Shown here in pieces: positions 3,001-6,000 of a stretch of DNA of 13,815 nt. The stretch is from a virus. Taxonomy: Duplodnaviria; Heunggongvirae; Uroviricota; Caudoviricetes. A program made the position numbers. The stretch's first letter is position 1. Each line of letters starts with the position of its first letter. The DNA is taken from IMG/VR virus record IMGVR_UViG_2778261151_000008; one strand, written 5' to 3'.

Positions 3001-6000
3001 AGGGCGAGTTGGCCGGAAAAGTTGGCTCAACACCAGGCTATTTACGGCTGGTTTTCAATGGTTATAAAAAAGCCAGTTTTGTGCTGGCTAAAAAACTTGA
3101 GCAATGCACGTCAGGTGCAATTACGAAATCTGACTTAAGACCGGATATCTATCCGAAAGATTAACAGAACACCTTCAATTTTTAACCACAGAACGATGAG
3201 GCTAACCGTGGGTAAGCATCACTGGAAAGTAGAAAAACAGCCTGAGTGGTACGTGAAAGCTGTCAGAAAAACTATCGCGGCGTTGCCGGGGGGGTACGCT
3301 GAAGCTGCTGAGTGGCTAGATGTAACAGAGAACGCTTTATTCAACCGCCTTCGTGCAGATGGCGATCAGATTTTCCCGCTGGGATGGGCAATGATTTTAC
3401 AGCGCGCGGCTGGCACTCACTACATTGCGGATGCTGTCGCACAGTCTGCTGGTGGGGTGTTTGTATCGCTTCCTGAAATTGAGGAAGTAGAGAACGCCGA
3501 TATAAACCAGCGCCTGCTGGAAGTCATCGAACAGATCGGGAGTTACTCAAAGCAGATTCGTTCGGCAATCGAAGATGGGGTAGTGGAGCCACACGAGCAG
3601 ACAGCAATTAATGATGAGTTGTATCTGTCAATTTCGAAGCTCCAGGAGCATGCAGCACTGGTCTACAAAATCTTTTGCGCTCCAGAAAAGAGTGACGCCC
3701 GCGAGTGTGCAGCTCCGGGCGTCGTGGCGTTTTGTGTCTGTGGAGAAACTAACGCATGAACAGTTTAACGGCAAATAACCGTTTGTCGCAACAGCTGGTG
3801 GTCAGCGTCGCTGAACACCTGTTGTTACGGCATGAATGCAGATTACCAAATCTCCTGGCTGTAAGTAACCACAGAGAACTTTACCTGACTGTGGGGGGCG
3901 AGTTGTGCAGGAACTTAACCGCTGGTTTCGTGACGGAAGAGGACTTTATGTTCATGTTATTCGTTGGGAGCCAGAAACACAGCGCGTTATCTATCTTCGC
4001 AAAGACTACCCGCATGAGTGCTTTAGTCCTTTGTGGAAATTCAGGCGTGATTTTGTTGAGTGTGAAGGACCACCAGCACATTGATTCTGCCATTCCGGGA
4101 CGTTACACTGTTCAGGCACCTTATAAAGCGGGTGCCGGGATTGGCGTCCTGGAATTGATCAAGGCGATATATGACGCGCCAGCGTCTTTTTTATCGTCCG
4201 CATTTGCTCACATTAAAGTTATGGTGGGCTGGGCGGGGGCATCGAAAGATGCGCCGGTTTCCTTGATCACCGGTTACGCCAACCCCGTTCAGTTCACCAC
4301 CAGCGAAATTGGCGTTTCCGGTGGTGGAAATATTTCACCGATCAAGGAGGCTGCCATCATGGCTACTGTCCCAGCCCTCACTCGTCTGAATGATGAAGAC
4401 TTACATAAACTCAGTTATGTAACTACTGCACTACGTGCTCTGCGCAAGGTAACTCTTTCGGATCCGCAGGCACATCAGGTTCTGGTAGAAACCCTTCTTA
4501 ACTTGCAAGCTGAACGTATTCGTCTGGCGGATAAGGCTAATTTTCATATTCACCGTCTCCTGAATATCAGCGGAGGGCATCGTCATGCTTAATCCGTTGC
4601 TCCTCAACATTTACCGTTTATTTCAGCGTAAAAAAATATCAACACCCACAGTTGGGCAGTGGTACACCACGCCAGCAGGGCATGTTCTACGTGTCAGCCT
4701 GGTTGACCGTGAATGTCAGAAGGTGATTTGTGAACCGCTGGGCCGTAATTACCGCGTCAGTATGCCGCTTATAGCCTTTCGCTCCGGAAAAAACATGAAG
4801 CATCTCGGAGGTGCAGCATGAGTATGGAGCTGATGGTTAAAGCGATGAAAATTCGAGTGGGTAATCCATTGCGAAAACTGGTTCTGATCAAGCTGGCTGA
4901 TAATGCCAGCGATCAGGGTGAGTGCTGGCCCAGCTACCAGCATATTGCTGACCAGTGCGAGATTAGCAAACGTTCTGTGATGAATCATATTGCGGCCCTT
5001 TGTGATTCCGGGCTGGTAAAAAAAGTCACCCGGAAAGGTGAAAAAGGTAACTCAAGTAATATCTATCTCCTTCATCTGGATGGTGCAGGAGATTCACTAG
5101 GGGGTAGTGCAAATAATTCACTATCTGGTGCAGCAAATTCACCAGGTAGTGCAGGAGTTGCACCAGGGGGTAGTGCAGGAGATTCACCCAGAACCAGTAA
5201 CTCTTTTGAACCAGTCAAAGAACCAGTCAATGAACCAATGGCTGTTGGTGCATCTGCTGATGAGTCTGTGCGAGTTCGTTCAAACCGATCGGAATACTCT
5301 CCGGAGTTTGAGCAGGCATGGCTGTCATACCCCAAACGTGCTGGTGGCAATTCAAAATCTGCAGCCTTCAAAGCCTGGAAAGCCCGTTTGAATGAAGGAG
5401 TAAACCCCGAAACCATGCTGGAAGGTGTGAAACGCTACGCGGGTTGGGTATCTGCGATGGGCAATAGCGGCACACAATTTGTGAAACAGGCTGTCACGTT
5501 CTTTGGTCCGGATCGTCATTTCGAAGAATCCTGGGAAGTTCCTGCGGTATCTGCAGCCAGACGCGAGGACCCGTACTTCAAAGCCAGTTACGACAACGTG
5601 GACTACAGCCAGATCCCGGCAGGATTCAGGGGGTGATCATGAGTCTTTTGAATGCAGTTCAGAAATTCATTGAAGCCCATCCGGGGTGTACTTCCGGAGA
5701 CATTGCGGATGCTTTTGCTGGTTACTCACGGCAGCGCGTTCTGCAGTCAGCAAGCAAGTTACGTCAGAGTGGGCGTGTGGCTCACCGTTGTGAAGGAGAT
5801 ACACGCAGACATTTCCCGCGCCTGACTGAGAGAGCGCAAGAGCCGGAACCACAATCTGTTCGTGAAACCAGACCTGTGCGCAATTTCTATGTCGGCACTA
5901 ACGATCCCCGTGTGATTTTGTGCCTGACCCGCCAGGCTGAAGAACTGGAGTCCAGGGGCTTATACCGTCGTGCTGCAACGGTGTGGATGGCGGCATTCCG

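What the first reader, a model, noticed from the sequence alone, without database searches (positions are those of the whole stretch)
5082..5240. Candidate replication origin (iterons) embedded in the initiator gene
Five imperfect direct repeats of 18-24 bp (core GGT(AGT)GCA..A..TTCACC, with GGTG...CACC dyad ends) occupy 5082-5189, exactly where they encode the Gly/Ser/Ala-rich linker (GAGDSL, GGSANNSL, SGAANSP, GSAGVAP, GGSAGDSP) between the N-terminal DNA-binding domain and the C-terminal domain. Four GAACCAGT/A copies follow at 5191-5239. In lambda, ori consists of iterons inside the O gene bound by O's N-terminal domain, so the same dual coding and cis-acting role is plausible here. Caveat: the downstream sequence is only moderately AT-rich, unlike the lambda unwinding element.
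Basis: partly seen in the sequence, partly recalled or inferred. Interest (0 to 1): 0.6.

Follow-up and report, generated by a model that had tools for sequence, protein, structure and literature searches.

The report
Phage replication-origin repeats inside initiator gene
The repeats are real DNA-level protein-binding sites (iterons) lying in the linker-coding part of a lambdoid phage's replication-initiator gene, so this is very probably the phage's replication origin: a familiar lambda-like layout in a different, unstudied initiator family, followed by an unusually conserved short DNA box.

Summary
Observation confirmed. Window 4818-5636 (+) encodes the 272-aa SfV orf39-type replication initiator: a winged-helix HTH_36 N-domain, a disordered linker and a 4-helix C-domain. 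Five 15-bp dyad cores GTGCA-N5-T(T/G)CAC lie at 5083, 5107, 5128, 5149 and 5173, spaced 24/21/21/24 bp. They occur nowhere else in 13.8 kb (0.15 expected). GAACCAGT-type boxes follow at 5191, 5208, 5220 and 5232.

The repeats are constrained as DNA, not as peptide.
- In homologues whose N-domain DNA is only 72-78% identical, all five cores keep position and spacing.
- Third codon positions in the core arms are 80/80 identical, against 52% in the N-domain. The central 5 bp change non-synonymously.
- Other lineages of the same N-domain carry different dyad repeats at the same place, and these covary with the recognition helix.
- One Vibrio phage has the exact reverse complement of the window core, encoding another peptide.

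A block, AGAACCAGTCAC-N6-GAACCAGTC, follows the last iteron. It is invariant at synonymous sites across gammaproteobacterial phages and is read in two frames.

Origin activity itself is inferred by analogy with lambda and P22. No strongly AT-rich unwinding element, DnaA box or IHF site is present, and GC skew is uninformative. Verdict: a new member of a known kind, with an unexplained conserved box. Interest is moderate.

The parts
4818..5636 (+). Replication initiator gene (272 aa), the SfV orf39 type. It has no helicase or loader gene next to it ('initiator-solo').
   Evidence: ORF and translation. 97% DNA identity to SfV orf39 'replication protein' and to mEp460, 2H10 and Stx2c phages. Pfam HTH_36 at 43.5 bits against a cut-off of 25. 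PHROG 270 'replication initiation protein', E=1.6e-87. The next gene is PerC-like.
4818..5081 (+). Coding region of the N-terminal winged-helix DNA-binding domain (aa 1-88). The putative recognition helix is around aa 49-63 (ISKRSVMNHIAALC).
   Evidence: AF2 model: helices 3-11, 17-29, 40-47 and 51-63 plus a beta-hairpin wing at 67-85, pLDDT 80-92. Foldseek matches generic winged-helix proteins, including DnaD-N 2v79, weakly at E about 0.01-0.08. The helix sequence covaries with repeat type.
5040..5079 (.). Left flank of the array and the least stable 40-mer within the gene (65% AT). A possible alternative melting site.
   Evidence: Nearest-neighbour stability profile. Not among the least stable segments of the window.
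5082..5189 (.). Iteron array of five dyad-symmetric sites, about two helical turns apart.
   Evidence: for presence. for DNA-level conservation. for lineage-specific equivalents.
5083..5097 (.). Iteron core 1, GTGCAGGAGATTCAC.
   Evidence: The exact reverse complement occurs as the repeat unit in Vibrio phage 236O40-1.
5107..5121 (.). Iteron core 2, GTGCAAATAATTCAC.
5128..5142 (.). Iteron core 3, GTGCAGCAAATTCAC.
5149..5163 (.). Iteron core 4, GTGCAGGAGTTGCAC (perfect 5-bp dyad).
5173..5187 (.). Iteron core 5, GTGCAGGAGATTCAC. It abuts the conserved box.
5190..5239 (.). Conserved GAACC-box region: AGAACCAGTAAC (5190-5201), TCTTTT, GAACCAGTCAAA (5208-5219), GAACCAGTCAAT (5220-5231), GAACCAAT (5232-5239). 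It is 60-62% AT. It is a candidate unwinding or loading element, and it is also the recombination joint between N- and C-domain modules.
   Evidence: Synonymous-site invariance across lineages: 280 of 280 identical codons against 40% in the N-domain, and column-wise Fisher p=6e-5. The box is read in a different frame in Vibrio 236O40-1 and Shewanella prophages. The exact box occurs in prophages of many gammaproteobacterial genera. Mosaic joints lie here. The 12-mer copy number varies from 0 to 4.
5295..5513 (+). Coding region of the C-terminal four-helix domain (aa about 160-232). Presumed helicase or loader recruitment module.
   Evidence: AF2 helices 162-170, 180-192, 197-214 and 222-229. 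PHROG hits to the C-terminal parts of 'DnaD-like helicase loader' and 'primosomal protein' families. In relatives, the same C-domain is followed by DnaC-like and DnaB-like genes.

Best explanation
Window 5082-5240 is the cis-acting core of the phage's replication origin, embedded in the linker-coding part of its own initiator gene. Proposed mechanism, marked as shown or inferred:

1. Shown: five 15-bp dyad sites, GTGCA-N5-T(T/G)CAC, are phased 21/24 bp apart and so lie on one face of the helix. They are conserved as DNA, independently of the peptide they encode.
2. Inferred from covariation and co-inheritance: dimers of the N-terminal winged-helix domain of the 4818-5636 product bind these sites and assemble an O-some-like nucleoprotein complex.
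3. Inferred: the complex destabilises adjacent DNA. The most likely place is the invariant GAACCAGTCA box region immediately 3' of the last iteron (5190-5240). The less likely place is the 65% AT left flank.
4. Inferred: the C-terminal helical domain recruits the replicative helicase. In this 'initiator-solo' phage that would be host DnaB-DnaC. In relatives it would be the phage-encoded DnaC-like and DnaB-like proteins.

The disordered Gly/Ser/Ala/Pro linker tolerates whatever peptide the DNA sites dictate, and this is what allows the dual use of the sequence.
For: - Presence and non-randomness of the cores.
- DNA-level constraint: in four homologues with 72-78% N-domain nucleotide identity, the cores keep their offsets and spacing. 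Arm positions are 96% identical. Arm third-codon positions are 80/80 identical against 176/336 in the N-domain (Fisher p=6e-20). The central 5 bp are only 77% identical and change non-synonymously.
- Close relatives: among 78 of them, variation concentrates in the spacers between cores and is often non-synonymous.
- Same position, different sequence, always dyad-symmetric, in other lineages: GTGAC-N5-GTCAC, GGGCA-N5-TGCCC, yTrTGCC-N7-GGCAyAg, GTAGGC..GCCTAC and GGTCAG-N3-CTGACC. Each goes with a distinct recognition-helix sequence.
- Orientation independence: Vibrio phage 236O40-1 uses GTGAATCTCCTGCAC, the exact reverse complement of window cores 1 and 5, encoding GVVNLLH. Some arrays (L108, L151, L241) mix both orientations.
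- Co-inheritance: natural mosaics join a foreign N-domain plus its own repeats to the window-type C-domain at the box.
- Protein architecture fits: winged-helix domain, disordered linker, helical domain. The protein is annotated as an initiator.
[quoted passage not shown] P22 has an annotated rep_origin inside gene 18.
Against: - No experiment on any member of this family was found. Origin firing, N-domain binding and the melting site are all inferred.
- There is no strongly AT-rich unwinding element. The flanks are 60-65% AT and are not among the least stable 40-mers of the window.
- There is no DnaA box or IHF site nearby.
- GC skew shows no switch at this position.
- Window box 1 carries a singleton C-to-A change at 5199 in an otherwise invariant element (1 of 136 sequences). 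Some prophage relatives keep only 1-2 iterons. Individual copies may therefore be decaying.
Confidence: 0.8

Rival explanations
1. The repeats are binding sites for the initiator, or for another phage or host protein, but they serve autoregulation, copy control, incompatibility or a transcriptional roadblock rather than origin firing. The true origin would lie elsewhere.
For: The DNA-level constraint and the helix/half-site covariation show that the sites are bound. They do not show initiation. Iterons in plasmids have both roles. The nearby DNA lacks a clear AT-rich unwinding element.
Against: No other repeat cluster exists in the window. The position of the sites in the gene and their phasing match known phage origins (PMC7466680). 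The repeats always travel with the N-domain whichever helicase system follows.
Confidence: 0.1
2. The repeats are a low-complexity coding repeat in a flexible linker, made by replication slippage. They are conserved because the peptide matters or because they are recent duplications, and they have no cis-acting role.
For: Copy number varies from 1 to 9 among relatives, and the 12-mer from 0 to 4, which is typical of slippage. The peptide is Gly/Ser/Ala-rich.
Against: Synonymous sites in the arms are invariant while the encoded residues change. The same 15-mer occurs inverted and encodes a different peptide. Every lineage's unit is dyad-symmetric, which is a property of DNA and not of peptides. 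Codon resampling gave 0 of 20,000 trials with five cores. The centres have diverged to 77% identity, so the copies are not recent.
Confidence: 0.03
3. For the 5190-5240 box only: it is conserved because it is the preferred homologous-recombination joint between N-domain-plus-iteron modules and C-domain modules, with repeated exchange keeping it homogeneous. It would have no mechanical role in initiation.
For: Mosaic proteins switch partners exactly at this block (P0067 and P0072; Min27/F451, ZF40 and S107 share the block but have unrelated C-domains).
Against: Identity at synonymous sites holds across phages of Vibrio, Pseudomonas, Stenotrophomonas, Shewanella, Haemophilus and enterobacteria, with host GC from 40 to 63%. 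The 6 bp between the two box copies varies freely. The box goes with the N-domain family and not with the C-domain: it is absent from phiP27, Stx2_14040 and Vibrio 252E42.2, which share the C-domain. Its distance from the last iteron is fixed.
Confidence: 0.3

Closest known systems
ori-lambda inside gene O (lambda, 933W and other Stx phages)
   Same: Tandem dyad-symmetric iterons about two helical turns apart. They lie in the middle of the initiator gene, where it encodes the linker between an origin-specific N-terminal DNA-binding domain and a C-terminal recruitment domain. N-domain and iterons form one specificity module (PMC7466680 for the layout and for the effect of synonymous iteron mutations; module logic from established lambda genetics).
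   Different: The initiator is not a Phage_rep_O protein. Pfam assigns it to HTH_36, and it has no BLASTP similarity to the O-type P22 gp18. There is no roughly 80% AT tract. In its place is a 60-62% AT block of GAACCAGTCA boxes that is conserved across lineages. No P-like gene follows in this window.
P22 ori inside gene 18
   Same: The rep_origin is annotated inside the initiator gene, with short direct repeats. A DnaB-type helicase gene lies downstream, as in several relatives of the window gene.
   Different: The initiator protein is unrelated. The P22 repeats are followed by an A-rich stretch. No conserved GAACC box is present.
Bacillus phage SPP1 G38P / oriL and DnaD-type replisome organisers
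   Same: A winged-helix 'organiser' binds repeats located inside its own gene (from general knowledge of SPP1). There is weak DnaD_N similarity here (23.2 bits; 2v79), and the C-domain matches PHROG 'DnaD-like helicase loader' families.
   Different: The DnaD_N score is below Pfam's cut-off of 27 bits. No Phage_rep_org_N match was found. The hosts are Gram-negative, and the helicase partners differ.
Iteron plasmids (pPS10 RepA, R6K pi, RK2 TrfA) with 13-mer repeats in the unwinding element
   Same: Winged-helix initiators bind phased iterons. Short tandem 12-13-mers next to the iterons serve as the unwinding element, and some are bound as single strands by the initiator (general knowledge). 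The 12-bp GAACCAGTCAAA repeats are positioned in the same way.
   Different: Plasmid iterons lie outside the rep gene and are accompanied by DnaA boxes and AT-rich DNA. Neither is present here.

Membership tests
Lambda-type origin embedded in the initiator gene (architecture) | At least 3-4 direct repeats of about 15-20 bp with internal dyad symmetry, phased about two helical turns apart | tested here: met
   Five cores GTGCA-N5-TKCAC, spaced 24/21/21/24 bp
Lambda-type origin embedded in the initiator gene (architecture) | The repeats lie inside the initiator ORF, in the segment encoding the inter-domain linker | tested here: met
   Repeats correspond to aa 89-124. The AF2 linker 92-157 has pLDDT below 50 and lies between the winged-helix domain 1-88 and the helical domain 160-232
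Lambda-type origin embedded in the initiator gene (architecture) | The repeats are selected as DNA, not as peptide | tested here: met
   Arm third positions 80/80 identical against 52% in the N-domain. Centres change non-synonymously. An inverted copy in another phage encodes a different peptide
Lambda-type origin embedded in the initiator gene (architecture) | The repeats are bound by the initiator's N-terminal domain | not testable with these tools
   Indirect only: the recognition helix covaries with the half-site, and N-domain plus repeats are co-inherited in mosaics
Lambda-type origin embedded in the initiator gene (architecture) | A strongly AT-rich unwinding element lies next to the iterons | tested here: not met
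   Flanks are 60-65% AT and fall at the 75th-88th percentile of instability in the window, so they are not extreme
Lambda-type origin embedded in the initiator gene (architecture) | Supports initiation of replication | not testable with these tools
   No experimental report found. GC skew is uninformative
Lambda O protein family (Pfam Phage_rep_O) | Sequence membership of the initiator | tested here: not met
   No Phage_rep_O hit in Pfam. No similarity to the O-type P22 gp18, best E=1.3
Pfam HTH_36 (PF13730) winged-helix domain | Score above the gathering threshold | tested here: met
   43.5 bits against a cut-off of 25, aa 17-67. The same Pfam domain is precomputed for all 120 listed homologues
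DnaD / replisome-organiser family | DnaD_N domain above threshold | tested here: inconclusive
   23.2 bits against a cut-off of 27. Some homologues carry a precomputed PF21984 hit. Fold match to 2v79 only at E about 0.06
Initiator plus helicase-loader replication module (O-P or O-DnaC-DnaB) | A helicase or loader gene lies immediately downstream of the initiator | tested here: not met
   In the window and in SfV the next genes are PerC-like, a PAPS-reductase/dam-like gene and RusA. Such genes are present in relatives with the same C-domain

The most novel reading that the evidence does not exclude
The invariant block next to the last iteron, CAGAACCAGTCAC-N(3-8)-GAACCAGTCA, is a previously undescribed universal cis-element of this initiator family. 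It would be a sequence-specific unwinding or helicase-entry element that replaces the generic AT-rich tract. It may be read as single-stranded DNA by a conserved surface of the initiator, by analogy with DnaA-trios or the 13-mers of plasmid unwinding elements. This would explain three things: why it is frozen at synonymous sites in phages of hosts from 40 to 63% GC, why it is read in two reading frames, and why it travels with the N-domain rather than with the helicase-recruiting C-domain.
Probability: 0.35. Interest if true: 0.7.

Novelty: new member of a known kind. Interest (0 to 1): 0.45.

Why it matters
This initiator type is common. The search found 5,447 homologues, including one cluster with 2,852 member sequences. 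It occurs in SfV, ST64B, mEp460 and many Stx-converting phages. The published surveys of Stx-phage replication regions state that nothing is known about how the non-lambdoid 'Eru' modules replicate (PMC8951638). The present analysis gives a base-pair-resolution candidate origin, a predicted initiator/half-site recognition code across more than 25 lineages, and a conserved box whose role can be tested by synonymous recoding. Stx production depends on phage replication, so a defined origin and initiator-DNA interface is a usable handle. The layout itself is not new, so the conceptual advance is modest. The conserved box is the part that could teach something new about origin melting.

Tried and rejected
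The sign change is at about 2500-3000, where transcription diverges at cI/cro, and not at the repeats. This is uninformative for a lambdoid phage.
- DnaA boxes and IHF sites. None lies within 1 kb of the array, and window-wide counts are at chance.
- Structured RNA or a promoter at the site. Rfam finds nothing there, and the promoter scan finds 0 sites in 4500-5900.
- Homology to an initiator with a mapped origin. P22 gp18 is unrelated. The 'P27' O protein studied in PMC7466680 is lambda-O-like and is not phiP27 L17.
- The small upstream ORF 4585-4821 as the factor binding the conserved box. It is not co-distributed with the box: it also occurs next to a different N-domain in Stx2_14040, and it is replaced by unrelated ORFs in ZF40, Stenotrophomonas and Vibrio phages.
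- Programmed frameshift at TCTTTTGAA (my inference from the sequence). Rejected because this hexamer varies freely among lineages while the flanking boxes do not.
- Literature searches for the sequences themselves, and for origins of SfV-type or Eru-type modules, found nothing relevant. The SfV genome paper is not held.
- Solved-structure sequence search: no relative found.
- NCBIfam: no meaningful hit.
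Full report
**Context.** The window is the early-right region of a lambdoid temperate phage. It is about 97% identical over 4500-5900 to Shigella phage SfV, coliphages 2H10, Ayreon and mEp460, and a series of Stx2c-converting phages. The gene order is as follows:
- cI-like S24 repressor, 2199-2873 (-)
- cro-like gene, 2940-3164
- CII/CP76-like gene, 3196-3759
- Ash-family ORF, 3756-4592
- small ORF, 4585-4821
- the gene of interest, 4818-5636 (SfV orf39, 'replication protein')
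- PerC-like gene, 5633-6127

The 272-aa product has a Pfam HTH_36 domain (43.5 bits; DnaD_N is sub-threshold) and matches PHROG 270 'replication initiation protein'. No helicase or loader gene follows it in the window or in SfV.

**The observation.** The repeats are present as described. Their informative unit is a 15-bp core with inverted 5-bp arms, GTGCA-N5-T(T/G)CAC. The cores start at 5083, 5107, 5128, 5149 and 5173, spaced 24, 21, 21 and 24 bp. This is about two helical turns, so all sites face the same side of the helix. The pattern occurs five times in 13.8 kb, only here, against 0.15 expected. With the peptide held fixed and synonymous codons redrawn from the window's codon usage, none of 20,000 trials gave five cores. 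GAACCAGT follows at 5191, 5208 and 5220, with GAACCAAT at 5232. The first copy is 17 nt from the second, so this repeat is not a peptide repeat. An AlphaFold2 model built on 24 homologues gives a winged-helix domain (aa 1-88, pLDDT 80-92), a disordered segment (aa 92-157, pLDDT below 50) and a four-helix domain (aa 160-232). All the repeats lie in the disordered segment. Fold search returns only generic winged-helix proteins, among them the DnaD N-domain, at weak E-values.

I retrieved four enterobacterial homologues (Citrobacter, Raoultella, Yokenella and a metagenome contig). Their N-domain DNA is only 72-78% identical to the window, and about half of the codons for identical residues differ. 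All four keep five cores at the same offsets and with the same 24/21/21/24 spacing. A fifth homologue, from Citrobacter koseri, was also retrieved. It has lost one core and was left out of the site counts.
- Arm positions are 96% identical. The only changes interconvert TTCAC and TGCAC.
- Third codon positions within the arms are identical in 80 of 80 comparisons, against 176 of 336 in the N-domain (Fisher p=6e-20).
- The central 5 bp are 77% identical, and their changes are non-synonymous (NN becomes NP, NH, GY or NR).

So the DNA arms are frozen while the peptide drifts, which is the reverse of the refuting outcome. Among 78 near-identical relatives, variable sites concentrate in the spacers between cores and are often non-synonymous (Pro/Leu, Gly/Ser). 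Copy number also changes. Natural proteins of 242 to 302 aa correspond to one to nine iterons.

**Comparative anatomy of the family.** tblastn shows that the N-domain (aa 1-88) and the C-domain (aa about 155-272) recombine independently among phages. Every phage with a related N-domain that I examined has tandem repeats at the same position in the gene. The repeats differ in sequence between lineages, are always dyad-symmetric, and usually have a 21-24 bp period:
- GTGAC-N5-GTCAC: Vibrio D160, mEp010, Erwinia
- GGGCA-N5-TGCCC: Min27, F451, SF10 and many Pseudomonas prophages
- yTrTGCC-N7-GGCAyAg: ZF40, S107, Klebsiella and Stenotrophomonas phages
- GTAGGC..GCCTAC: Pseudomonas
- GGTCAG-N3-CTGACC: Amphritea, Marinobacterium

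The encoded peptides are unrelated (GGAGAA, PVPPKST, PSDRMSP and so on). Repeat type tracks the sequence of the putative recognition helix:
- SKRSVMNH goes with GTGMA half-sites.
- RSTVKxH goes with GGGCA.
- SKSAVrxH goes with TGCC-N7.
- DRSTVRxH goes with TAGGC.

Two observations are especially telling. First, Vibrio phage 236O40-1, whose N-domain is 60% identical, repeats GTGAATCTCCTGCAC. This is the exact reverse complement of window cores 1 and 5, and it encodes GVVNLLH instead of GAGDSP. Second, several arrays (L108, L151, L241, L242) mix the two orientations of the asymmetric core within one array. Both are expected for a site bound by a symmetric dimer and not for a peptide repeat. Phages with a different N-domain but the same C-domain (phiP27, Vibrio 252E42.2) have their own unrelated dyad repeats. 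Natural mosaics such as P0067 and P0072 join a foreign N-domain and its own repeats to the window-type C-domain. N-domain and repeats therefore form one specificity module, as in lambda O and ori-lambda.

**The conserved box.** Immediately 3' of the last iteron, at a fixed distance, lies AGAACCAGTCAC-TCTTTT-GAACCAGTC. I compared nine lineages chosen by protein similarity alone: phages of E. coli, Salmonella, Klebsiella, Vibrio, Pectobacterium and Stenotrophomonas.
- All 280 pairs of codons for identical residues in this block are identical, against 40% in the N-domain.
- Five of six invariant-residue columns use a single codon, against 1 of 33 in the N-domain (p=6e-5).
- The rare AGA arginine codon is kept throughout.
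- In Vibrio 236O40-1 and three Shewanella prophages, the same DNA is read in another frame (PEPVT instead of RTSH).

An exact-pattern scan of one genome per species found the box in prophages of Pseudomonas, Xenorhabdus, Photorhabdus, Shewanella, Marinomonas, Microbulbifer, Haemophilus, Erwinia, Providencia and others, with host GC from 40 to 63%. In 68 of 94 hits the N-domain signature lies upstream in frame. The rest are mostly truncated contigs, frame variants or a few chance hits in Actinobacteria and Deinococcales. The 6 bp between the two box copies varies freely. The box accompanies the N-domain family and not the C-domain. It is also where module exchange occurs. Its function is not established. 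I consider two readings. The first is a sequence-specific unwinding or loading element, analogous to the 12-13-mers next to iterons in plasmid origins. The second is a recombination joint kept homogeneous by exchange. The fixed spacing, the breadth of hosts and the variable inner hexamer favour a direct role but do not prove one.

**What is missing.** The flanks of the array are only moderately AT-rich: 5040-5079 is 65% AT and 5180-5239 is 60-62% AT. Neither ranks among the least stable 40-mers of the window. There are no DnaA boxes or IHF consensus sites within 1 kb. No promoter-like site lies in 4500-5900, and no Rfam family matches at the site. GC skew changes sign at the cI/cro divergence and not here. 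I found no experimental work on this initiator family. The Eru surveys of Stx-phage replication regions say explicitly that the replication of these modules is unstudied. The O-protein/iteron biochemistry in PMC7466680 concerns lambda-O-type proteins. P22 gene 18, which has an annotated internal origin, is unrelated in sequence.

**Mechanism and confidence.** The best-supported account has four steps.
1. The N-terminal winged-helix domain binds as dimers to the five phased cores.
2. The resulting complex opens adjacent DNA. I favour the box region.
3. The C-terminal helical domain brings in the helicase.
4. In relatives with the same C-domain, a DnaC-like gene and a DnaB-like gene follow directly. 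Here none does, so host DnaB-DnaC would be used.

Step 1 is supported by covariation and co-inheritance. Steps 2 to 4 are inferred. I put 0.8 on 'origin iterons of this initiator' and about 0.1 on 'binding sites with a purely regulatory role'. A purely coding repeat is very unlikely.

**Comparison and novelty.** The layout works like ori-lambda inside O and like the P22 origin inside gene 18. It also resembles SPP1 G38P/oriL and the iteron plasmids. It is not a member of the lambda O protein family, and it fails the 'AT-rich unwinding element' feature. I file it as a new member of a known kind. The conserved box is the one element I could not match to anything described.

Noticed in passing
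window 4116-4192 (+) and 4217-4304 (+): Rfam gathering-level matches to isrK Hfq-binding RNA (64 bits) and C4 antisense RNA (82 bits). Both lie inside the 278-aa 'Ash-family' ORF 3756-4592, which is SfV orf37 'immunity region'. This suggests a P1/P7-type c4-ant immunity element, or an isrK/anti-Q-like module, overlapping or replacing part of the annotated ORF.
   Followed up: no
window 5199: The window has AGAACCAGTAAC (Asn) where 134 of 136 sequences with the same last iteron have AGAACCAGTCAC (His). This is a singleton change in an otherwise invariant box. It could be tolerated variation or a sign of decay of this copy.
   Followed up: partly
window 5633-9431 and SfV locus L001; relatives L003, L007, L225-L229: The window and SfV have no helicase or loader gene after the initiator ('initiator-solo'). 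Phages whose initiator has the same C-terminal domain carry a DnaC/IstB-like gene and a DnaB-like gene immediately downstream. The same C-domain therefore seems to work with either phage or host helicase systems.
   Followed up: partly
proteins P0001, P0003, P0009, P0030, P0042; loci L020, L021, L052, L061, L078, L083: Copy number varies naturally. Otherwise near-identical initiator genes have 1, 2, 5, 7, 8 or 9 iterons (proteins of 242-302 aa) and 0-4 copies of the 12-mer GAACCAGTCAAA.
   Followed up: yes
proteins P0067 and P0072; L005 vs L089: Mosaic initiators join a foreign N-domain plus its own iterons to the window-type C-domain exactly at the conserved box. Separately, the annotated Min27 'O' ORF is frameshifted after the box relative to the near-identical F451 gene.
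   Followed up: partly
window 4877-4886 (-) vs 5189-5198 (+): A perfect 10-nt inverted repeat, ACTGGTTCTG / CAGAACCAGT, links the N-domain coding region (RKLVL) with box 1, 302 nt apart. It is present in Min27 and the close relatives but not in Vibrio D160 or ZF40, so it is probably fortuitous.
   Followed up: partly
plasmid records NZ_CP148393.1 (44.6 kb), CP077666.1 (38.9 kb), NZ_CP019281.1 (33.8 kb): Phage-sized circular 'plasmid' records carry this region at 96-98% identity. They are presumably excised or replicating phage genomes assembled as plasmids.
   Followed up: no
window 5026-5041 (-): A terminator-like hairpin followed by a T-run lies on the minus strand, just upstream of the iteron array and inside the initiator gene. 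The count of such sites in the region is at chance level.
   Followed up: no
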